The notes under the pieces: model-generated
What the model saw: only the letters and a program-made list of their open reading frames with translations
Databases searched by the model: none
What the model was told of the DNA's origin: nothing
Part shown: positions 22,952 through 37,257 of the stretch, one piece after another
Layout of the letters: every line of letters begins with the position of its first letter
Position numbering within the stretch: position 1 is the stretch's first letter
IMG/VR virus record: IMGVR_UViG_2917849834_000002
Origin: a virus
Taxonomy: Duplodnaviria > Heunggongvirae > Uroviricota > Caudoviricetes
DNA length: 37,257 nt
Direction: 5' to 3' (one strand)
Translations under genes and position numbers: made by a program

Positions 22952-24739
22952 ATGGCGTATTCTGATGAGGTGATTGCTGCTGCAAAATCGCTCTATCTGA
23001 AAAGACACACACCAAAAGAAATACAAAAAAAACTCGGACTGAACAGTCCGCGAATTGTTTATTACTGGGCGACAAAATTTGAGTGGTACACGCAGCTTAA
23101 TACTGAAGGCGTGGAGGATGTTATCGCCCGTCGTCTCGCTGTACTGGCGGAGCGTGATCATAAAACGCCGGAAGAACACGATGAACTCGATCGCCTGATT
23201 GGCCATCACGTCAAACTGATGTCGGTCAGGAACAAGCACACGGAACGAATGGCCGAGATTGAACGAATGGGAGCGGATATTCCCCAGTCTGGTCGTTATG
23301 GAAAAGAAGAACGCGGAGAAAAAGGTGCAGGTAAGAAAGAGCGCCCCCGCAAAGCTAATGACGTTTCCGGACTGACAGCGGAAAGTTTTGAGCCGTTTAC
23401 GAAAAAATTGTTTGCTTATCAGTTGCGCCTGCGTGAAAACAAATTCCGCCGTGTGCGCAACCTGCTTAAATCCCGCCAGATTGGGGCGACGTATTACTTC
23501 GCGTTTGAGGCATTTGAAGATGCAGTATTAACCGGCGACACACAGATATTTTTATCGGCATCAAAACGTCAGGCCGAAGTGTTCCGTACTTATATTGTAA
23601 AAATTGCACAAACAGAGTTTGGTATTCCCATTAAAGGCAATCCGGTTAAGTTAAGTAACCTGGCTGAACTGTATTTTCTGGCGACCAACAGTAACACAGC
23701 GCAGTCAAACAGCGGCCACCTGTATATTGATGAATACCTGTGGATCCCCGGTTTTCGCCGTCTCAATGAAGTGGCATCAGGGATGGCCACCCATAAACAC
23801 TGGCGCATTACCTATTTCTCCACGCCGTCATCCAAAACACACCAGGGTTACCCGTTCTGGTCTGGCGATGAATGGCGCAAAGGCGATCCGAAACGAAAAG
23901 GGGTTGAGTTTCCGTCCTTTGATGAGCTGCGCGATGGTGGGCGTGAATGTCCGGATGGTCAGTGGCGCTATGTGGTTACGCTGGAAGATGCTATTGCCGG
24001 CGGTTTTAACCTTGCTGACATCAACGAGCTGCGCGAGCGATACAACGAAACAGCGTTCAATATGCTGTTTATGTGCGTGTTTGTGGATGACAAAGAGAGC
24101 GTCTTTAAATTCGATGATCTTGTGCGTTGTGGTGTTGATGTCAGTACGTGGGAGGATTATCACCCGGAAGAGTCCATGCCATTTGGTAACCGTGAGGTGT
24201 GGGGCGGCTTTGACCCGGCGCGCTCCGGCGATAACGCCACATTTGTTGTGCTGGCACCGCCGCTGGTTGCGGCAGAACGATTCCGCGTGCTGGAAAAACA
24301 CCACTGGCGCAGCATGTCATTCCAGTTTATGGCAGAGCGTATCCGCAGCATTAAGGCGCGCTATAACATGACGTTTATCGGCATTGACGTCACCGGTCTT
24401 GGTTACGGTGTCTTTGAGCTGGTTCAGGGATTTGCCCGCCGTGAAACAGTGGCCATTCATTACAGCGTGGAATCCAAAAACCGCCTGGTGATGAAGATGC
24501 TGGATCTGATTTACGCCAACCGTATTGAGTGGGATGAGGAAGCCACGGATATTCCGGCATCGTTCCTGGCCATTCGTCAGGAATCCACCAACAGCGGCAA
24601 TAAAGTCACTTTCACCGCCGAACGTAGCGAAGAAACCGGGCACGCTGACATCTTCTTTGCCATAGCTCATGCCGCAAGTAATGAACCCCTGAACTATAAG
24701 CACAAGCGCAAATCAACATGGATCCTGTCAGATGAGTAA
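22952..24739 (+). CDS. P: Terminase large (ATPase) subunit, gpP-like
   Basis: 595 aa; Walker A-like KSRQIGATYYF; overlaps the portal gene start by 8 nt. Confidence 0.9.
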   Translation: MAYSDEVIAAAKSLYLKRHTPKEIQKKLGLNSPRIVYYWATKFEWYTQLNTEGVEDVIARRLAVLAERDHKTPEEHDELDRLIGHHVKLMSVRNKHTERMAEIERMGADIPQSGRYGKEERGEKGAGKKERPRKANDVSGLTAESFEPFTKKLFAYQLRLRENKFRRVRNLLKSRQIGATYYFAFEAFEDAVLTGDTQIFLSASKRQAEVFRTYIVKIAQTEFGIPIKGNPVKLSNLAELYFLATNSNTAQSNSGHLYIDEYLWIPGFRRLNEVASGMATHKHWRITYFSTPSSKTHQGYPFWSGDEWRKGDPKRKGVEFPSFDELRDGGRECPDGQWRYVVTLEDAIAGGFNLADINELRERYNETAFNMLFMCVFVDDKESVFKFDDLVRCGVDVSTWEDYHPEESMPFGNREVWGGFDPARSGDNATFVVLAPPLVAAERFRVLEKHHWRSMSFQFMAERIRSIKARYNMTFIGIDVTGLGYGVFELVQGFARRETVAIHYSVESKNRLVMKMLDLIYANRIEWDEEATDIPASFLAIRQESTNSGNKVTFTAERSEETGHADIFFAIAHAASNEPLNYKHKRKSTWILSDE

Positions 24740-27729: not shown

Positions 27730-27837
27730 CAGGATTTTTAAATCCCGTTTTTGCCTGTTTTATGCGTGCTTCATATATCGCGGCGCGTTTTTTGCTCATT
27801 TACGGGATTTGTGAATCCCGTTTCTGTCTGTTTTTTG
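27730..27837. repeat. Two ~35-bp direct repeats, each with an internal palindrome; candidate parC-like centromere/operator
   Basis: ACAGGATTTTTAAATCCCGTTTTTGCCTGTTTT (27730..) and ACGGGATTTGTGAATCCCGTTTCTGTCTGTTTT (27802..), upstream of parM and overlapping a plausible promoter and the last codons of gpA. Confidence 0.5.
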
Positions 27838-30596
27838 TTCCCACGGGTCAGGCCACCCCGCAGCAGGTCTGCTTTGCGGTGGACGCGTTCAGTAGTTTCA
27901 CTGATTCTCTGTGCGTGCTCTGCGTCACGGATGGCGCGCAGCATGTCAGAAAGCACGGTAACGGGTGTTTTCATGATGTTCTGGTCCTGCTGAAGTGTGG
28001 ATGCCAGGCGTGCGGCGGCTTCGGGGTCTGATGCCCCCAGCTGTGCCAGATAGCTGGCGACCGGGTTATGGCGGATCTCCGTGCTGCTTACGCCGTGATT
28101 ACGGCTCAGGCGCTGCCAGAGCTGCGTGATTCGGCTGTCCGGGCGGGTATCCGGTTTGCGTACAACTTCAAATCCCTGCGGTGCAATGATGCTGCCGTCA
28201 ACGTACAGACTGCCGCCCCGTAACAGGTGCTGCATCTGCTGTTCACCAATATGCAGGCCGAGAGATTCAGCAGACTCCCGCCATTCTTTGGCGAGTAACT
28301 CGTGGTTATCAGGCAAAGGCTGTGGCTGTTTGCGGCTCTGTGTCCAGCTCTGCATTTCATCGCTGCTGTTTTTTGCCTGTTTGTCACGCAGCGAACGCAT
28401 CAGCGCCCGGCGTTCGTGCCGTTTCAGTGAGTGCATCCATTCATCCACATCAACGCCGTCAGGAAGCTGCGGCCACGGTGTTGACCGTTCTTCCGGCTGT
28501 TCTGTCCCGTTGTTGTCCGTTTCCTGTACAAGGGGACAGTTATTGCCACGAGTCCAAGGGGCGGCAGGGCCGCCCTGAAGGTCAAAACCATTTTCGTGGG
28601 CGCTGTCTTCCGCTTCCGGTTTACGTCTTACCAGCGTCCAGTTATCCGGATGTGTGCACACGCGGGAAGACTCCCCGATGAGCGGCGACCAGATCCCGTA
28701 AATCTGTACGCTCTGTTCGCCGTAATCGTTCAGCTCATCTGCGAGGTCGTAGGCGGTGCGAATCAGGTAGTCCTTGCGTGGAACAAGTACGCCACCCTGT
28801 TTTTCAATGTAGGTGGCAAAACACCCGGCATCGGCGGCAGCGAGTACCGCATCCATTGCATCATCCTTCAGCCGTTGCGGGCCTTCCGGGTTGCGTGCCA
28901 TCTGGCTGGCAAGGCGGCGGAGTTCACGCCATACCTGACGGGAGGGGATGCCAAAGAACTGGAACTGGCGGACCCGGTGAAGGCGCGCCCAGCCGATGGC
29001 GCGCTCCACGCTCTCGGCCATTGATTTACCTGTTTCGTGGTCAACGCGTGGCTTGCCCGTTTTCGGGTCGATACCATCCACGGCGCGGCTGTCCAGGTTC
29101 TTTCCGATGTAGGTGGCGATGTAGCTGGTTGGTGTGCCTTTTGAGCCGTCGACGTACTCCGCCTTAAAGCGCGGGGTGATATCGCTGCCCAACTCGTGGC
29201 GGTCTTCCTGAATGGCAATATCGCGGGCGTGGGACACAATAGTGTCGATTTCTTCCGGATGAGCAAAGACCATCATATGCCAGTGCACGGTGCCGTCATG
29301 GTGAGGCTCCACCGTGCGGATGCCATACCAGCGCAGGCCGTCGCGGCTCAGTTTTTTGCGGACCGCCGCAAAAAACGTGTTAACCAGGTAATCGCTGGAG
29401 TCGCGCATTGTGGCCCCGTTCCATTTGGGATTCGGATGACCGTTCTCTGTTGTGGCGTGGTATTTTGACGGGCAGGTGACAGTCAGAAACACCGCTTTGT
29501 CGCCACGGGCTTCGGCCAGAAGTTCCAGCCCCTTCATGGTGGCCATCATTTCTGCCTTACGGTGAGTCGGGTTACTTACTCCCGCGTAATACACTGTCTC
29601 GAGATCAATCGTGAAGCCGTCTTCGTTTTCCAGCATGAAACTTTTCAGGAAATCGCGTGTTTTCTCGCGCTGCGCGCGAAACTCGCTTAACGCGTCCTGG
29701 CTCAGATAGGGCGATGTTTTTCTGGAAACCAGACAGGCGGCGCGGAGTTGTTCTTCCCGCCACTCGCAACGTAGAAGCCATAGTTTGCGCTTCCACCAGT
29801 CCGCGCAGGTCAGGCGGAGGATTGCGCCCGGTAACAATTCCGTATCCGGAACGCTCTTGTTCAGGGCTTCGTAATGTGGCGGCATGATGTGCAGGCATAA
29901 TGCGATACGGGCCAGCATCCGGTAAGCCTTCAACATTACATCCATGGTCAGCTCGCCATCTCTGGCACCAAAGCCATCGCAGAGTGTTTCGAAGGTGCTG
30001 CTGAGCATCGCCGCTGTCATGACGGCCAGCGTCTGTATCTGGTGCTTGTTGAGCTGCGGCAGGTAAAGCAAATCGTCCAGGCGTTCGCGCCCGGCAAGGG
30101 AGCGATAACCCGGTGTCAGCCAGCGTCCGTCAGTGCGATCCAGACGTTCGAATATTTTGCGCAGGGTTCCGCGTGCATAGCCCTCTGCTGGTCGGCTCTT
30201 TTTGCCTTTCTGGCGATCAGATTCCTGCTTCTTACGCAAAAAAGAGAGGCGGCGGCTCAGTGGTTCACGCAGATAAACGGGAAGTGCCTTCAGTTCGGCA
30301 AAGGCGCTGGCCACCGGGTCTTGCTTTATTTCCTGGCGCTTATTGATGATGTTTTTTATCAGTTTTTCGCGTTGCCCGGCTTCCTCAAGGGATGCCATGA
30401 GTTTTTTGCCTGTATCGGATTGTGCGAAAAAGGCTTCTTCCTTCGCTTCCTGTTCTTCCTGTGCCCTTTTGTCCGCCTCAAGGTAGTAACGGATGGCGCG
30501 TTGCAGGTCGGTTTCAGTTTCCTGCCTGCGCTCCGTAAATCTGGCCGGATCAATGGCTGGCCGTGGTTCATTCCAGCTCCATGCAAACTCACTCAT
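27771..30596 (-). CDS. A: Rolling-circle replication initiator, gpA-like (HUH endonuclease)
   Basis: About 941 aa from ATG at 30596; HUH motif VHWHMMVF and active-site tyrosine pair YIATYIGKN; C-terminal region longer than P2 gpA. Confidence 0.85.
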   Translation of the reverse strand: MSEFAWSWNEPRPAIDPARFTERRQETETDLQRAIRYYLEADKRAQEEQEAKEEAFFAQSDTGKKLMASLEEAGQREKLIKNIINKRQEIKQDPVASAFAELKALPVYLREPLSRRLSFLRKKQESDRQKGKKSRPAEGYARGTLRKIFERLDRTDGRWLTPGYRSLAGRERLDDLLYLPQLNKHQIQTLAVMTAAMLSSTFETLCDGFGARDGELTMDVMLKAYRMLARIALCLHIMPPHYEALNKSVPDTELLPGAILRLTCADWWKRKLWLLRCEWREEQLRAACLVSRKTSPYLSQDALSEFRAQREKTRDFLKSFMLENEDGFTIDLETVYYAGVSNPTHRKAEMMATMKGLELLAEARGDKAVFLTVTCPSKYHATTENGHPNPKWNGATMRDSSDYLVNTFFAAVRKKLSRDGLRWYGIRTVEPHHDGTVHWHMMVFAHPEEIDTIVSHARDIAIQEDRHELGSDITPRFKAEYVDGSKGTPTSYIATYIGKNLDSRAVDGIDPKTGKPRVDHETGKSMAESVERAIGWARLHRVRQFQFFGIPSRQVWRELRRLASQMARNPEGPQRLKDDAMDAVLAAADAGCFATYIEKQGGVLVPRKDYLIRTAYDLADELNDYGEQSVQIYGIWSPLIGESSRVCTHPDNWTLVRRKPEAEDSAHENGFDLQGGPAAPWTRGNNCPLVQETDNNGTEQPEERSTPWPQLPDGVDVDEWMHSLKRHERRALMRSLRDKQAKNSSDEMQSWTQSRKQPQPLPDNHELLAKEWRESAESLGLHIGEQQMQHLLRGGSLYVDGSIIAPQGFEVVRKPDTRPDSRITQLWQRLSRNHGVSSTEIRHNPVASYLAQLGASDPEAAARLASTLQQDQNIMKTPVTVLSDMLRAIRDAEHAQRISETTERVHRKADLLRGGLTRGNKKQTETGFTNPVNEQKTRRDI

Positions 30597-30982
30597 GGCT
30601 GGTATCCCGTCACGCGCTGCCACTCCTGCGAGAAGATGGCGGAAAGGCGGTTAAATTCAGCGGTGTATTCACTCAGCGAGGCACACCCGCCAGCAGTGCG
30701 ATGCGCCAGCATTGCCACAAATACGGAGGCCGGGGAGTCGTAATACGCCAGCAGTGATTCGCCGTGTGGTGTCAGGCAGTGCAACGCCAGCCCGTGTGGT
30801 GTGAAATCCACGCGGTAGCAGTCGTCTACTGTGAAATAAAGGGTGTCCGCATTCTCCGGTTTTGTGGTGCGTGCTCTGTTGTCACGACCACGGATGTAGA
30901 GATCAAATAATCCCTGAAGAACGGGAGCCAGACGGGTGTCCTGTGTGCGCACCCATCTTGTGAAGTCATGAGCGTCAATCAT
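30593..30982 (-). CDS. Hypothetical early protein
   Basis: 129 aa; stop overlaps the gpA ATG (ATGA). Confidence 0.45.
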   Translation of the reverse strand: MIDAHDFTRWVRTQDTRLAPVLQGLFDLYIRGRDNRARTTKPENADTLYFTVDDCYRVDFTPHGLALHCLTPHGESLLAYYDSPASVFVAMLAHRTAGGCASLSEYTAEFNRLSAIFSQEWQRVTGYQP

Positions 30983-31054
30983 GCTGCAATTCTCTTTACT
31001 ACAGATGTGCGAAGGCCTCCCGCCGCAAGGTGCAGGAAAGGCCCGGAACAGGAA

Positions 31055-31285
31055 TTAATGGAGTTTGTTTTGCTGCTGGATGAGCTGTTGAAGCTCGTGC
31101 AGATCATCCGCCAGATAACTGAAAACAGAGGCGGAATAAATGTTTGATAGTGCGTGGCTGCGCTCATGCAGCATATTGATGTGCATGATTTGCGCGACGC
31201 GTGATGCGCGGGAAAGTCTGCGGTTGATTTCAGTCTGGATGTGACGACGCGCAGCGTATGCGCGCTGTTGTTTGCGGTTTGCCAT
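31055..31285 (-). CDS. Hypothetical small basic protein
   Basis: 76 aa, Arg/Gln-rich; SD-like AGAGG upstream of the ATG at 31285. Confidence 0.4.
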   Translation of the reverse strand: MANRKQQRAYAARRHIQTEINRRLSRASRVAQIMHINMLHERSHALSNIYSASVFSYLADDLHELQQLIQQQNKLH

Positions 31286-31459
31286 GATGTGGCCTCTACG
31301 TGTGTAAGTTTTGAAAACTCACCATCCAGAGCTGCGAAACTGTGGGTGGCGAGACGTACGAGGTTCGCAGTACCGGCAAACGCAGAACCCGGCCCGACCG
31401 AAGTCGGCCCCGTACGCCCCACCATAATTCGTGTGCGAAAAAGACGTGGCGATACAGTA

Positions 31460-31490
31460 CGCACAAAAAAACCGCTGGCGCGGTTGTGCG
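31460..31490 (-). terminator. Candidate intrinsic terminator inside the early region
   Basis: On the minus strand ACCGC-GCCA-GCGGT followed by UUUUUUU, nested in a longer imperfect dyad; about 120 nt downstream of the 183-aa gene stop. Confidence 0.4.
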
Positions 31491-31605
31491 CTACGTTTGT
31501 CAGCGGGCTGCGAAACCCGGCACCCGTTTTATGAGGTGCAGCGGAAATGTAACCTGACTGATTGCGGCATGGCAAGCGGTTTTTTTGTGTGTGCATGGTG
31601 GTTAC

Positions 31606-34055: not shown

Positions 34056-34334
34056 TTAATCTGCTTTCTGAATTTCGGCTTCTGAATCCATACAAATAAT
34101 TTCGATATAGGGTTCATCGCCATTAACCTGACGTGCCTTTTCAGCTTCGCTAATGATTTCTCGTACGGTCTGGTACGGAAGCTCCACGAACAGTTGTGCG
34201 CCGCCGTCCACATAAATATGAGTGGTTGCGTTTTTTGCCTGGGCCACACCATTAATGGCTGATGCGCGCAATAAAAGTTCACCGCGAAAATCAATAAAGC
34301 GGATAAATACACCTTGTGCATGCTCTTTGGTCAT
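34056..34334 (-). CDS. Hypothetical early protein
   Basis: About 92 aa from ATG at 34334 (SD AGGTG). Confidence 0.4.
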   Translation of the reverse strand: MTKEHAQGVFIRFIDFRGELLLRASAINGVAQAKNATTHIYVDGGAQLFVELPYQTVREIISEAEKARQVNGDEPYIEIICMDSEAEIQKAD

Positions 34335-34344
34335 AAAGCACCTG

Positions 34345-34743
34345 TTATAAATCAGCCTGTTTAATAAAACTTTGTCCGCGAAGCAGACGATCAACCGTGC
34401 GTAGTGCTTCGTATAATGTGAAATCCTGCCCGAACTGATTGTCGCCGCTGCTTAGTGCAAAAATGCGATTTCCGGTAAACGGATTGCGTGGGCATTTATG
34501 GACCACGATTCCAGCTTTCTCAATCAGCCAGGCATGCTCGCCGATTTGTTTTACTGGGTAGCCATCCGGCGTTGCGTGTGTTTCGCTCAGGCTGTAGCGA
34601 GAGCTGCTGCGTGATGCACTGGTAGCGAAACGGTTAGCATGGCGTTCAGCACCATTGCGGAAGTGTTGCCGTGAAGAATTACGTCGTTGCTTCATACAAA
34701 AATATCCTGCTGCTGTTGCGAATTTGTGCCGGGTTTTAGCCAT
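34345..34743 (-). CDS. Hypothetical early protein
   Basis: 116 to 132 aa depending on start; basic N-terminus. Confidence 0.4.
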   Translation of the reverse strand: MAKTRHKFATAAGYFCMKQRRNSSRQHFRNGAERHANRFATSASRSSSRYSLSETHATPDGYPVKQIGEHAWLIEKAGIVVHKCPRNPFTGNRIFALSSGDNQFGQDFTLYEALRTVDRLLRGQSFIKQADL

Positions 34744-34836
34744 GCCCGGCGCATGGTTTTGTGGTATTTTTCCACCGCCCGCAGTCTTGAAGGGGCTGTA
34801 AAGGGCGCGTGTTCAACCAACCACAAGGAATAAAAT

Positions 34837-35019
34837 ATGTCCTATGATAAAAAGGTTATTGATGCGCTAAATGCGGCAATTTCTGTATTAGAGAAAGCGC
34901 CGGTTAATCCTCCGAATAAAGGAGAGCCATCAAAAACCATTCGTCAGCTCGCGAATGAATTGCGTACTCTTGCGTTAAGAAAATATCCTCAGGCAAGTAC
35001 ATGGATTCTTCCTGAGTGA
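34837..35019 (+). CDS. Small plus-strand ORF convergent with the early operon (protein, or start of an antisense transcript)
   Basis: 60 aa; strong SD AAGGAA 7 nt upstream; its TGA abuts the stop of the convergent minus-strand gene with no terminator between. Confidence 0.35.
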   Translation: MSYDKKVIDALNAAISVLEKAPVNPPNKGEPSKTIRQLANELRTLALRKYPQASTWILPE

Positions 35020-35430
35020 TTATTTAACTCCAGTGCCGGAGATTTTCTCTGGCACATTTCCGACCTCAATAACCATGTTGTCACTGCTTAAAATTTGTCG
35101 ATAAAGCTCAAAGACTTCTTTGGCGGGAAAACGGAGCGCAACGCCGTATATTGGTTCTAAAATCATTCCAATAGTTTCTTTGATGCCATCTCGACAAAAA
35201 TGGCCGTATTCATCGTCAGGATGCAGGGTGATATCTTTCAAATCTTCGCCATTCTGAAGCTTTGATTTTAATGCCATCAGGCCAGCGAACGTTCTGTGTA
35301 ATTCGTGGTAGTCAACGCTGATTTCGACCTGCGGCTTACCTGGAAAAACGAGTAAAACCTTCTGGTGTGGCTTTTCGTTTTTCAGGGTTTCCAGTCGTTC
35401 CAGTAGTGCTTTGTCTTCGTAGTTTGTCAT
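35020..35430 (-). CDS. Hypothetical early protein (second gene of the early operon)
   Basis: About 137 aa from ATG at 35430, one nt after the cox stop. Confidence 0.45.
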   Translation of the reverse strand: MTNYEDKALLERLETLKNEKPHQKVLLVFPGKPQVEISVDYHELHRTFAGLMALKSKLQNGEDLKDITLHPDDEYGHFCRDGIKETIGMILEPIYGVALRFPAKEVFELYRQILSSDNMVIEVGNVPEKISGTGVK

Positions 35431-35431
35431 T

Positions 35432-35719
35432 TCAAAGCCCCAACCACAGCAACCATGCCTCTCGTTGTTCTTTCGGCTGATTAAAAAATGCCTTGCGCAT
35501 ACCCGCATTAAACGCTGGCAGATATATCCAGTTTTCTGATGCTCGCGTCTTCACTGAACCTGGCTTCGTGAAATCAACCGTTGGTAGCTTTGCGGCGTCA
35601 ATCATGGTTCTGACGGTTGATTCTTTGCGGCCAATCATCTTGGCAAATAGTTGATATGGCACCGCTTCAAGTGGATATGGTGCTACCTGAATGAACCCCT
35701 CAAGCTCTGATTCGCTCAT
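35432..35719 (-). CDS. cox: Cox-like excisionase / early regulator
   Basis: 95 aa; VPYQLFAKMIGRKESTVRTMIDAAKLP ... YLPAFNAG ... WLLWLGL parallels P2 Cox motifs from memory; first gene divergent from C. Confidence 0.75.
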   Translation of the reverse strand: MSESELEGFIQVAPYPLEAVPYQLFAKMIGRKESTVRTMIDAAKLPTVDFTKPGSVKTRASENWIYLPAFNAGMRKAFFNQPKEQREAWLLWLGL

Positions 35720-35743
35720 TGTGGTAATCTCCTTAATTCGTCC

Positions 35744-35786
35744 AAATGGCCCAAAATGGCTTATATAGGCTTATTTTGGCTATTTG
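35744..35786. promoter_or_regulatory. Immunity operator/promoter region with tandem direct repeats
   Basis: AAATGGC cc AAAATGGC then three abutting repeats GGCTTATAT / GGCTTATTTT / GGCTATTTG between the divergent cox and C starts. Confidence 0.5.
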
Positions 35787-35835
35787 AATGTTTTTGTATT
35801 ACATGTAACCCAATAGCGTGGAGTTTAGATCACAT

Positions 35836-36156
35836 ATGATCCATAAATCAAGCCTTGGAGAAAAACTTCGCCTGATTCGAGAGGCAGAGGGATTGTCACG
35901 TAGAGAGATGGGAGAGGTGACAGGGGTATCTCAAAACAATCTCAAAAATTATGAAATATTGGGAAGAATGATACCTGGAGAAACGTTACTCCTGATTTTG
36001 AATCATCCTCGTTTTCGGAAGTATTCGGATTGGGTGATGTTTAATCAAACTAATGCTGCGACGGGGCAGATTGCTCCGCCTCTCTCTCTTGATGGCTTCT
36101 TCGATTCGGAAGGCGATCAGGTTTCAACCGAAACAAACCAAAAATCACCCCACTGA
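35836..36156 (+). CDS. C: Immunity repressor, P2 C-like (HTH)
   Basis: 106 aa from ATG at 35836; HTH LSRREMGEVTGVSQNNLKNYE and C-terminal FNQTNAATGQIAPPL resemble P2 C from memory. Confidence 0.75.
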   Translation: MIHKSSLGEKLRLIREAEGLSRREMGEVTGVSQNNLKNYEILGRMIPGETLLLILNHPRFRKYSDWVMFNQTNAATGQIAPPLSLDGFFDSEGDQVSTETNQKSPH

Positions 36157-36252
36157 GGCCAGAAAACTGGTTAGACCTGCTTTTTGTCTGGTCTGATTAT
36201 TGCTGGAAAGAGGCTGGAGAAATTGTAGAGCGGTTCATTGGAGGGCTTCACG

Positions 36253-37257
36253 ATGTCGATTAAGAAGCTCGAAGATGGTCGTTATTTGCTGGACATCAGG
36301 CCGAACGGACGCAAGGGAAAGCGCGTGCGTAAGGTATTTGACAAAAAATCGGTAGCGGTGGCCACTGAACGCTACATCATGGCGAACGCTGAAAAGCGGG
36401 AATATATACAGGGCTACCGTGATCGTCGAACGCTAAATGATTTGCTTGAGTTGTGGTGGATGTATCACGGCCAGCACAGGCGTAAGGCGGAAGAAGACCG
36501 AAAACAACTGCGCAACATAATCAATGAGCTTGGCGCTGATATGCAGGCTGTGGATCTTGATAAGCTGAAAATTATCGCGTGGCGTTCTCAAAAGATAGCT
36601 GATGGATTGAAACCGTCATCTGCTAACAGATACATGAATCGGTTATCCGGAATGTTTACAGTACTGAAGAAAATAGGCCTCTGGGATGCAGAGCATCCGG
36701 TAAGGGGGATTTCTATTCTTTATGTATCCCCACGAGAAATGGCTTTCCTGTCCCGGAAGGAAGTGGCGTTATTGCTCGATACACTGGAGGGCGATTACTG
36801 GCGTGTTGCGCTTTTGTGTTTAAGCACGGGAGCGCGCTGGAGTGAAGCCTGTAAGCTCCGTGGTGAACAGATAGTTCATAACCGTGTAACGTTTCTCGAA
36901 ACCAAAAATGGCCGAAAGAGAACAGTGCCAATTTCGCAGGCGGTTTGTGAGGCGATCAAAACCAGAGAAACAGGCGGCTTGTTTGAGGTGAAGTACCGGG
37001 AATTCTGCTTGGCGCTGAAAAGAGTTAAGCCCGATTTGCCAAAAGGCCAGGCTGCACATGTGCTGCGGCATACGTTCGCCAGCCATTTTGTGATGAACGG
37101 AGGAAACATTATTGCGCTTCAGAAGATTCTTGGCCACGCAACCATTCAGCAAACAATGGCATATGCACATTTTGCACCGGATTACCTGCAGGATGCGGTG
37201 GCCCTTAATCCGCTGAAAGGTGGCGTGAGTGTCCACGCAGTGTCCACGGGGGATTAA
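36253..37257 (+). CDS. int: Tyrosine integrase, P2 Int-like
   Basis: 334 aa from ATG at 36253; N-terminal MSIKKLEDGRYLLDIRPNGRKGKRVRKVFDKK and C-terminal HVLRHTFASHF ... MAYAHFAP closely parallel P2 Int as I recall it. Confidence 0.9.
   Translation: MSIKKLEDGRYLLDIRPNGRKGKRVRKVFDKKSVAVATERYIMANAEKREYIQGYRDRRTLNDLLELWWMYHGQHRRKAEEDRKQLRNIINELGADMQAVDLDKLKIIAWRSQKIADGLKPSSANRYMNRLSGMFTVLKKIGLWDAEHPVRGISILYVSPREMAFLSRKEVALLLDTLEGDYWRVALLCLSTGARWSEACKLRGEQIVHNRVTFLETKNGRKRTVPISQAVCEAIKTRETGGLFEVKYREFCLALKRVKPDLPKGQAAHVLRHTFASHFVMNGGNIIALQKILGHATIQQTMAYAHFAPDYLQDAVALNPLKGGVSVHAVSTGD
37230..37247. repeat. Right copy of boundary repeat TGTCCACGCAGTGTCCAC inside the int 3' end
   Basis: 17/18 identical to 1162..1179; two tandem GTGTCCAC units. 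Confidence 0.5.

What the first reader, a model, noticed from the sequence alone, without database searches (positions are those of the whole stretch)
34744..35019. Plus-strand unit convergent with the early lytic operon
A 60-aa plus-strand ORF with a strong SD runs into the 3' end of the second early gene, with stop codons abutting and no terminator between. The arrangement recalls a 186-type establishment promoter transcribing antisense through the early genes toward the repressor and integrase. The upstream region contains TGGTATTTT (extended -10 like) and a GTGG-N7-CCAC dyad.
Basis: inference. Interest (0 to 1): 0.4.

Follow-up and report, generated by a model that had tools for sequence, protein, structure and literature searches.

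The report
Prophage accessory gene with own promoter
The 60-codon plus-strand ORF is a real, conserved small gene with its own promoter and terminator-like hairpin, inserted backwards into the early lytic operon of a P2-like prophage; it is one of many interchangeable small genes behind the same invariant promoter block, not a phage-186-style establishment promoter.

Summary
ORF 34837..35019 (+), SD AAGGA, TGGTATTTT (34762..34770) and abutting stop codons are all present.

The ORF is a real gene. All homologues are 55-60 aa, and dN/dS is 0.13 against a Yersinia copy.

The window is a P2-like prophage (Xuanwuvirus/P88 group): int, C, Cox, no CII. Positions 34703..35433 form a replacement cassette that close relatives lack.

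Upstream lies a block, GTGCCGGGTTTTAGCCATGCCCGGCGCATGG..TGTGGTAnnnT. It is near-invariant from E. coli to Yersinia and in 186-like phages.
- In 39 viral contigs carrying the exact 29-mer, 35 have an SD-led plus-strand ORF 37-90 nt downstream (21% at random positions).
- These ORFs fall into 11 unrelated families.
- Neighbours on both sides vary.
- Only T-12, A-11, T-7 and the TG stay fixed, the signature of an extended -10 promoter.

A stable hairpin (35033..35055) follows the stop. Diverged homologues have full plus-strand terminators at that position.

Best reading: a self-contained "moron" in an under-described hotspot, probably expressed from the prophage and silenced by convergent Pe transcription.

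The 186 pE analogy fails. There is no CII, the position differs, and the block also occurs downstream of cII in CII-encoding phages. The GTGG-N7-CCAC dyad is not conserved. Protein function is unknown.

The parts
34725..34753 (+). GC-rich dyad, TGTGCCGGGT-N9-GCCCGGCGCA. It is the core of the invariant block 34726..34772. It lies at about -52 to -24 from the predicted start. Its role is unresolved: operator, activator site or insulator hairpin.
   Evidence: It occurs only once in the window, with 0 expected by chance. It has 0-1 mismatch in 17 distinct loci, including Yersinia and a 186-like prophage, whose flanks differ. The exact 29-mer is found in 39 IMG/VR contigs. In L039 the arms are kept while the loop changes. 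As plus-strand RNA the region 34720-34780 that contains the dyad folds at -25.8 kcal/mol, z = -3.7.
34762..34770 (+). Predicted extended -10 promoter: TG at 34762-63 and hexamer TATTTT at 34765-70. There is no recognisable -35. The predicted start is near 34777.
   Evidence: Of 26 distinct block-bearing sequences, 21 have TGGTAnnnT exactly 5 nt after the block: TATTTT, TAATTT, TAGGAT, TATCGT, TATTGT, TAATGT, TAGTTT. Three more recreate TGGTATTCT after an 8-nt deletion. The background frequency of the motif is 0.9% per 22-nt window. The canonical -35/-10 scan found nothing.
34773..34811 (+). Leader stem-loop at the predicted 5' end of the mRNA (core 34776..34807).
   Evidence: The consensus fold has 13 pairs at -16.3 kcal/mol. 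No pair shows a two-sided compensatory change within this leader class, and one sequence breaks a pair. Other leader classes have an unrelated hairpin at the same position. One class shows a compensatory pair, TCTGGT/ACCAGA versus TCTGTT/AACAGA. Structural support is moderate.
34812..34836 (+). CA-rich translation-initiation region with SD AAGGA (34825-29).
   Evidence: AACCAACCACAAAGGA is shared by several otherwise unrelated cargo classes.
34837..35019 (+). Gene for a 60-aa helical-hairpin protein of unknown function.
   Evidence: The family is length-conserved and has remote homologues. dN/dS is 0.13 against the Yersinia copy. The AF2 model has helix 3-20, a loop, then helices 33-49 and 51-57, with pLDDT 72. 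There is no hit in Pfam, PHROG, PADLOC, NCBIfam or the PDB.
35033..35055 (+). Terminator-like hairpin GTGCCGGAGA-TTT-TCTCTGGCAC with tail ATTTCC. It lies inside the last codons of the minus gene.
   Evidence: Free energy is -17 kcal/mol, z = -3.9. It is kept in homologues, including the Yersinia variant. Equivalent hairpins with T-rich tails on the plus strand only follow most other cargo classes. L039 and L040 have canonical terminators. The U-tract here is too weak for the terminator scan.
35020..35430 (-). Convergent 136-aa early gene, translationally coupled to cox. It marks the right end of the cassette.
   Evidence: The family has 33 clusters, with invariant motifs FPGKPQ and DDEYGHFCR. 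The short 135-137-aa form occurs with the 60-aa ORF in 7 of 7 viral contigs. Pairs at 26-30% identity remain syntenic in L039 and L040. No fold match was found.
35432..35719 (-). cox, the first early gene.
   Evidence: PF10743 at 1.3e-22 and phrog_272.
34345..34695 (-). DUF4761 early gene, the left flank of the cassette.
   Evidence: PF15958 at 1e-69. Homology to relatives resumes at 34702.
34703..35433 (.). Replacement cassette, absent from the closest sequenced phages.
   Evidence: Shae_phiSM, PhiR44_2 and Chuche align only up to 34702 and from 35434 onward. They carry a 68-aa minus-strand gene there instead.

Best explanation
The region 34725..35055 is a self-contained accessory ('moron') transcription unit. 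It is inserted in reverse orientation between cox plus one more gene and the rest of the early operon of a P2-like prophage.

An invariant upstream block supplies a sigma-70 extended -10 promoter (TGGTATTTT) preceded by a GC-rich dyad. The mRNA starts near 34777 with a 5' stem-loop. It has a CA-rich leader and SD, encodes a 60-aa helical-hairpin protein, and ends mostly at the hairpin 35033..35055.

Because it points against Pe, it can be expressed in the lysogen while C represses Pe. During lytic growth the early transcript must run antisense across the whole unit. That should silence it by polymerase collision and RNA duplex formation.

The same block drives at least 11 unrelated small genes in other P2/186-like phages. 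The locus is therefore a swap site for small accessory proteins.

Shown: the gene is real, the cassette is variable, the block is linked to the plus-strand ORF, the -10 conservation pattern holds, and the hairpins exist.

Inferred: promoter activity, start site, termination efficiency and lysogen-biased expression.

Unknown: what the protein does. My guess is a prophage-expressed modulator that affects other phages or satellites, or the phage's own early proteins.
For: - P2-type context and cassette limits.
- Coding signature.
- Block invariance despite saturated synonymous sites in the adjacent ORF (dS about 1).
- Unbiased 29-mer scan: 39 contigs, of which 35 have an SD-led plus ORF at +37 to +90, against 21% at random positions. 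Cargo forms 11 clusters. Convergent partners form 13 clusters. Left neighbours form at least 9 clusters..
- Relatives without the block have only minus-strand genes there.
- TGnTAnnnT pattern.
- Plus-strand-specific hairpins or terminators after the cargo ORFs.
- The same unit is present in the isolated phages SEN4/SEN5.
- The integrase-primase interval is reported as a minor accessory/defence hotspot of P2-like prophages: PMC13586616.
Against: - No transcript data exist for this locus.
- There is no -35 element, and the consensus promoter scan found nothing.
- The U-tract after the hairpin is weak in this window, so read-through is possible.
- Cassette GC (0.41-0.46) does not differ clearly from its flanks, so there is no compositional sign of foreign origin.
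- The dyad could be an operator that keeps the promoter off under conditions unknown here.
- The leader hairpin shows no two-sided covariation within its class.
- No cargo family matches a known defence or anti-defence protein.
Confidence: 0.7

Rival explanations
1. A 186-pE-like establishment or antisense promoter. On this reading the main output is a plus-strand transcript that runs antisense through the early genes into C and int, helping to establish or maintain lysogeny. The ORF would be incidental.
For: The unit is convergent with Pe, with C and int downstream on the same strand. The U-tract after the hairpin is weak. The dyad arms are 19 bp apart centre to centre upstream of the -10, which loosely recalls the two-turn CII site of 186.
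Against: No CII is present. The position and distance are wrong (PMC6593788). The block is also found downstream of cII in CII-encoding phages. It is identical in phages with different Cox, C and int types. The ORF is under purifying selection. Diverged homologues have clear terminators. An 8-nt deletion shifts the dyad relative to the -10 in some classes, which a phased activator site would not tolerate.
Confidence: 0.08
2. The 60-aa protein and the convergent 136-aa early protein form a functional two-gene module. One possibility is a prophage-made small protein that binds or neutralises the early protein. Another is a pair regulated through their overlapping 3' ends.
For: The short form of the minus gene occurs with the 60-aa ORF in 7 of 7 contigs. 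Pairs at 26-35% identity keep the same abutting arrangement in L039, L040 and L068. The variable C-terminal half of the small protein shows dN/dS of 0.3-0.8 among E. coli copies.
Against: The 136-aa family also pairs with the 78-aa and ECs1072 cargos. ECs1072 also occurs without it. The 60-aa family occurs in SEN5 next to an unrelated 158-aa gene. Co-divergence is expected from linkage alone. No interaction test was possible.
Confidence: 0.2
3. The conserved block serves the minus-strand early mRNA, for example as a processing or stability hairpin ahead of DUF4761, and the plus-strand ORF is a by-product.
For: The block lies within 113 nt of the start of the next minus-strand gene in the 33 loci where such a gene was found, overlapping that start in some. 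The hairpin can also form in the minus strand.
Against: The left-hand gene belongs to at least 9 unrelated families at variable distances. The block is absent when there is no plus-strand cargo. The minus-strand fold is weaker, z = -1.6 against -3.75. No minus-strand promoter or U-tract is present. The plus ORF shows a coding signature.
Confidence: 0.05

Closest known systems
Phage morons: accessory genes with their own promoter and terminator, such as P2 old, tin and Z/fun, or neaT in the CFT073 P2-like prophage (PMC3573123)
   Same: It is present in some but not all close relatives. It is oriented against the flanking operon. It has its own promoter-like and terminator-like signals. It sits at a position where cargo varies.
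   Different: The position is new: just after cox (plus one gene) inside the early operon. The described P2 positions are gpA-portal, the tail genes, and tail-CI. Only the broad integrase-primase interval has been noted before (PMC13586616). The cargo is very small (29-158 aa). All variants share one near-invariant promoter block. No compositional anomaly is seen.
Coliphage 186 pE, the CII-activated establishment promoter
   Same: It is a plus-strand (lysogenic-direction) start convergent with the early lytic promoter, with a dyad upstream of a weak-(-35) promoter.
   Different: There is no CII. It lies about 975 bp rather than 340 bp from the lytic promoter, and not at the first/second gene junction. 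It encodes a protein and ends in a hairpin. It coexists with cII in 186-like phages.
Lambda OOP RNA (pO), an antisense transcript overlapping the 3' end of cII
   Same: It is a short transcript convergent with the early operon. Its 3' end overlaps the 3' end of the second early gene by at least 36 nt if it ends at the hairpin.
   Different: OOP is a 77-nt non-coding RNA. This unit carries a conserved ORF under purifying selection, and its cargo is interchangeable.
Hypervariable small-protein loci behind a conserved regulatory element, such as anti-CRISPR/anti-defence loci
   Same: One conserved upstream element precedes many unrelated small proteins at one genomic position.
   Different: No conserved regulator gene of the aca type is linked to it. 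No cargo matches a known anti-defence or defence family. Its orientation against the early promoter suggests lysogenic rather than early-lytic expression.

Membership tests
186-type pE/CII establishment system | A CII activator (169 aa, HTH) encoded as an early gene | tested here: not met
186-type pE/CII establishment system | Promoter at the apl/cII junction, about 340 bp from and convergent with pR | tested here: not met
   186 pE is at 23400-23462, between apl and cII (PMC6593788). Here the cox/second-gene junction is 1 nt long. The unit starts about 975 bp from the inferred Pe start.
186-type pE/CII establishment system | Inverted-repeat activator site with half-sites at -38 and -58 | tested here: not met
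   The dyad arms are centred near -29 and -48, and 8 nt closer in some classes. They are identical in phages with and without CII.
186-type pE/CII establishment system | Transcript continues into the repressor and integrase genes | not testable with these tools
   A hairpin at 35033-35055 and canonical terminators in homologues argue against this. The weak U-tract here leaves partial read-through open.
Phage moron | Present in some and absent from other closely related genomes | tested here: met
   The cassette 34703-35433 is absent from Shae_phiSM, PhiR44_2 and Chuche. It is complete in 1 of 5426 E. coli genomes.
Phage moron | Own promoter, independent of the flanking operon | tested here: inconclusive
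   The comparative signature of an extended -10 is strong. There is no -35, no hit in the scan, and no transcript data.
Phage moron | Own terminator | tested here: inconclusive
   A stable hairpin is present but its U-tract is poor. Other cargo classes have clear plus-strand terminators.
Phage moron | Base composition differs from the surrounding genome | tested here: not met
   GC is 0.41-0.46 in the cassette and 0.44-0.53 in the flanks, with no sharp break.
Lambda OOP-type antisense RNA | Short non-coding RNA | tested here: not met
   The region holds a 60-codon ORF with dN/dS 0.13 and remote protein homologues. Rfam gives no match there.
Known anti-phage defence systems (PADLOC 2.0) | HMM match to a catalogued defence protein | tested here: not met
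   The 60-aa and 136-aa proteins have no hit at E <= 1. The alternative cargos give only noise.

The most novel reading that the evidence does not exclude
The invariant dyad plus extended -10 block is a dedicated, regulated expression port of P2/186-like phages. It presents a rapidly exchanged repertoire of very small proteins, at least 11 families of 29-158 aa, all uncharacterised. These proteins are made from the prophage and act in phage-phage, phage-satellite or phage-defence conflicts. A conserved host or phage factor binds the dyad. This would be a hitherto undescribed conflict hotspot with its own control element.
Probability: 0.3. Interest if true: 0.65.

Novelty: new member of a known kind. 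Interest (0 to 1): 0.38.

Why it matters
Ordinary part: this is a small accessory gene of unknown function in a prophage.

Useful part: the same 45-nt promoter block marks a swap site for many unrelated small genes inside the early operon of P2/186-like phages. Some of these genes are unannotated or called on the wrong strand in public records. The block gives a simple sequence handle for harvesting these small proteins and testing them for exclusion, defence or counter-defence activity. The convergent layout is also a natural case of expression gated by transcriptional interference from the lytic promoter.

Tried and rejected
- Family searches for the 60-aa and 136-aa proteins in Pfam, PHROGs, PADLOC and NCBIfam found nothing. 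PDB sequence profiles gave only noise.
- Rfam had no match in 34300-36300.
- The sigma-70 -35/-10 scan found 0 sites.
- The minus-strand terminator-like site at 34958..34937 is not conserved in homologues, so it is chance.
- No operator sequence is shared between the Pe/Pc switch and the unit's promoter; only 7-mers match.
- I read the block for Ogr-type TGT-N12-ACA, sigma-54, sigma-32 and sigma-E motifs, and for a minus-strand promoter. None fits. The sigma-54-like GG..GC spacing is one base short, and that stretch is not conserved.
- An N-terminal extension of DUF4761 starting at the ATG in the dyad loop (MAKTRH...) is out of frame or terminated in L014 and L015, so the block is not coding.
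- Two giant proteins hit by the 60-aa profile (P0040, P0044) are tandem-repeat artefacts.
- The 186 tR1 terminator is unrelated to the block.
- Alternative cargos and their partners have no informative family hits.
- The literature search found no description of this unit.
- The one-genome-per-species scan gave a single extra locus, in E. albertii.

Full report
**What is at the coordinates**

- A plus-strand ATG ORF of 60 codons lies at 34837..35019.
- AAGGA sits 7 nt upstream of the ATG.
- TGGTATTTT is at 34762..34770.
- GTGG-N7-CCAC is at 34761..34775.
- A convergent minus-strand ORF has its TAA stop (35022-20) directly against the plus-strand TGA (35017-19).

The minus-strand gene is 35020..35430 (136 aa). 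Its ATG lies one base after the cox stop.

**Genomic context**

The window is a P2-like prophage of the Xuanwuvirus/P88 group. From the right end, the genes are:
- integrase, 36238..37257 (+);
- an HTH C repressor, 35836..36156 (+);
- Cox, 35432..35719 (-), PF10743;
- the 136-aa gene (-);
- the 60-aa ORF (+);
- DUF4761, a phrog_3800 protein and DUF4754 (all -).

The closest sequenced phages are Shae_phiSM, PhiR44_2 and Chuche. They align only up to 34702 and again from 35434. Between those points they carry a 68-aa minus-strand gene instead. So 34703..35433 is a replacement cassette. Only 1 of 5426 complete E. coli genomes has the whole cassette.

**The ORF is a real gene**

- Five close clusters are all exactly 60 aa, at 72-92% identity, from E. 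coli and Yersinia enterocolitica.
- Against the Yersinia copy, 26-28 differences fall at third codon positions and 4-11 at the others. dN/dS is 0.13-0.14 and dS is about 1.
- A profile search of 1.84 billion representatives adds 55-60-aa relatives.
- Three of these four relatives (L038, L039, L040/L041) lie in the same place in other P2-like prophages; L042 is on a short, unrelated contig. Salmonella phages SEN4/SEN5, found through the block match, carry another.
- AlphaFold gives a helical hairpin with pLDDT 72.
- No family, defence-library or structure match exists.

**The upstream block**

An alignment of loci with different cargo shows that the 110-130 nt upstream of the ORF are almost invariant. 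The core is GTGCCGGGTTTTAGCCATGCCCGGCGCATGGTTTTGTGGTAWTTT (34726..34772). It has 0-1 mismatch in 17 distinct loci. These include the Yersinia prophage and a 186-like prophage, whose flanks are unrelated.

An unbiased scan of IMG/VR with the exact 29-mer found 39 contigs.
- In 35 of them, an SD-preceded plus-strand ORF starts 37-90 nt after the block. The rate at random positions in the same contigs is 21%.
- Two more have an ORF without an SD (my reading of the sequences).
- The ORFs form 11 BLAST-unrelated families of 29-158 aa.
- The convergent partner genes form 13 families.
- The gene on the other side of the block forms at least 9 families.
- Relatives that lack the block have only minus-strand genes there.

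The block therefore belongs to the plus-strand cargo and not to its neighbours.

**Promoter signature**

All leader classes keep TGGTAnnnT directly after the block. The hexamers seen are TATTTT, TAATTT, TAGGAT, TATCGT, TATTGT, TAATGT and TAGTTT. One class has an 8-nt deletion that recreates TGGTATTCT. TG, T-12, A-11 and T-7 stay fixed while the middle of the hexamer varies. That is the pattern expected for a sigma-70 extended -10 element (established promoter knowledge).

Five to eight nt further on, each class has a stem-loop of class-specific sequence. A CA-rich stretch and the SD follow. Within this window's class the 13-pair hairpin shows no two-sided covariation. Support for it comes mainly from positional conservation across classes and from one compensatory pair in another class.

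The GTGG-N7-CCAC dyad is not conserved.

The GC-rich dyad (34725-34734 / 34744-34753) is strongly conserved. In L039 its arms are kept while the loop changes. Its role is open. It lies at about -52 to -24 from the predicted start, which fits an operator or an activator site. However, the 8-nt deletion in some classes argues against a strictly phased activator.

**The 3' end**

A 10-bp hairpin at 35033..35055 starts 13 nt after the stop. Its free energy is -17 kcal/mol, z = -3.9, and it is kept in homologues. Its tail, ATTTCC, is a poor U-tract.

The diverged homologues L039 and L040 have canonical plus-strand terminators at the same place: a stem followed by TTTTTCTTTT or TTTTTCCC. Most other cargo classes have a stable hairpin with a T-rich tail on the plus strand only.

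The unit is therefore built to end just after its ORF, inside the 3' end of the convergent gene. In this window some read-through remains possible.

**How it most likely works**

The unit is a promoter-leader-ORF-terminator cassette pointing against Pe. Reading the switch region, I infer that Pe starts near 35752 and Pc near 35737 (and direct reading). The unit's predicted start is then about 975 bp downstream of Pe.

With Pe repressed by C in the lysogen, nothing opposes the unit. After derepression, the early transcript has to cross it antisense to reach DUF4761 and the replication genes. Collision and RNA duplex formation should then shut it off.

This is inference from the layout and from established work on convergent promoters (PMC6593788). 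No transcript data exist.

The protein's function is unknown.

**Relation to the 136-aa gene**

The short form of the 136-aa family always accompanies the 60-aa family. Pairs at 26-35% identity keep the arrangement. However:
- the 136-aa family also pairs with other cargos;
- those cargos also occur without it;
- SEN5 pairs the small protein with an unrelated gene.

Linkage is enough to explain the association. A functional pairing remains a 0.2 possibility.

**Comparison with 186 pE**

186 pE lies at the apl/cII junction, 340 bp from pR. It depends on CII bound at -38 and -58, and it has negligible basal activity (PMC6593788). P2-type switches lack CII (PMC7708051).

Here no CII exists and the position differs. 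The same block also lies downstream of a 186-type cII in L057 and L063. The resemblance is limited to orientation.

**Novelty**

Published P2 hotspots are gpA-portal (old/tin), the tail region (Z/fun) and tail-CI. A 2026 survey notes that 8% of P2 defence systems lie somewhere between the integrase and primase genes. I found no description of this block or of its small cargos.

I file the finding as a new, uncharacterised member of a known kind (a phage moron). It has a moderately interesting twist: a shared invariant promoter block in front of a hypervariable set of small genes.

Noticed in passing
window 31342-31429 (-) and 31465-31539 (-): Rfam matches above gathering score to the C4 antisense RNA (80 bits) and the isrK Hfq-binding RNA (70 bits). 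They lie side by side in the ORF-poor stretch 30979-31600 of the early operon, upstream of the gpA-like gene 27771-30623.
   Followed up: no
window 35720-35835: This is the switch region. TGTGGTAATCT at 35720-30 (+) looks like an extended -10 for Pc and shares the TGTGGTA motif with the cargo promoter. Direct repeats AAATGGC (35744, 35754) and GGCTTAT (35758, 35768), spaced 10 bp, look like operator repeats. Pe is probably -35 TTCAAA (35788-83) and -10 TATAAG (35765-60) on the minus strand (and direct reading).
   Followed up: partly
L083 (Yersinia phage vB_YenM_42.18) 1801-2512: The block is followed by two plus-strand ORFs: a 39-aa acidic peptide (1911-2030) and a 155-aa protein that looks like a two-TM protein by eye (2036-2503). 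GenBank annotates a 221-aa minus-strand gene over the same DNA, which is probably a wrong-strand call.
   Followed up: partly
L015 (E. coli CFSAN051542, 186-like prophage) 1909-2196: A 95-aa plus-strand ORF with a GTG start and a good SD lies behind the block. RefSeq does not annotate it. It overlaps the 3' end of the annotated minus-strand gene by 125 nt.
   Followed up: partly
L082 (Salmonella phages SEN4/SEN5) 1801-2120: Isolated phages carry a 60-aa family member (SEN5_34) behind the block, followed by a GGCCGG/CCGGCC hairpin. Here the cassette lies between the first early gene and a gene annotated as Cox, so the insertion point within the early operon is not fixed.
   Followed up: partly
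L005/L043 versus L062: The 202-aa form of the 136-aa family consists of the conserved N-terminal ~120 residues plus an ~80-aa tail. In L062 that tail exists as a separate 91-aa ORF. The 3' end of this early gene is remodelled each time the cargo changes.
   Followed up: no
L016 1893-2129 and relatives (78-aa cargo family): This family has a weak, sub-threshold resemblance to the BssS biofilm-regulator family (PF13991, E = 0.006, 17 bits against a cutoff of 27).
   Followed up: no
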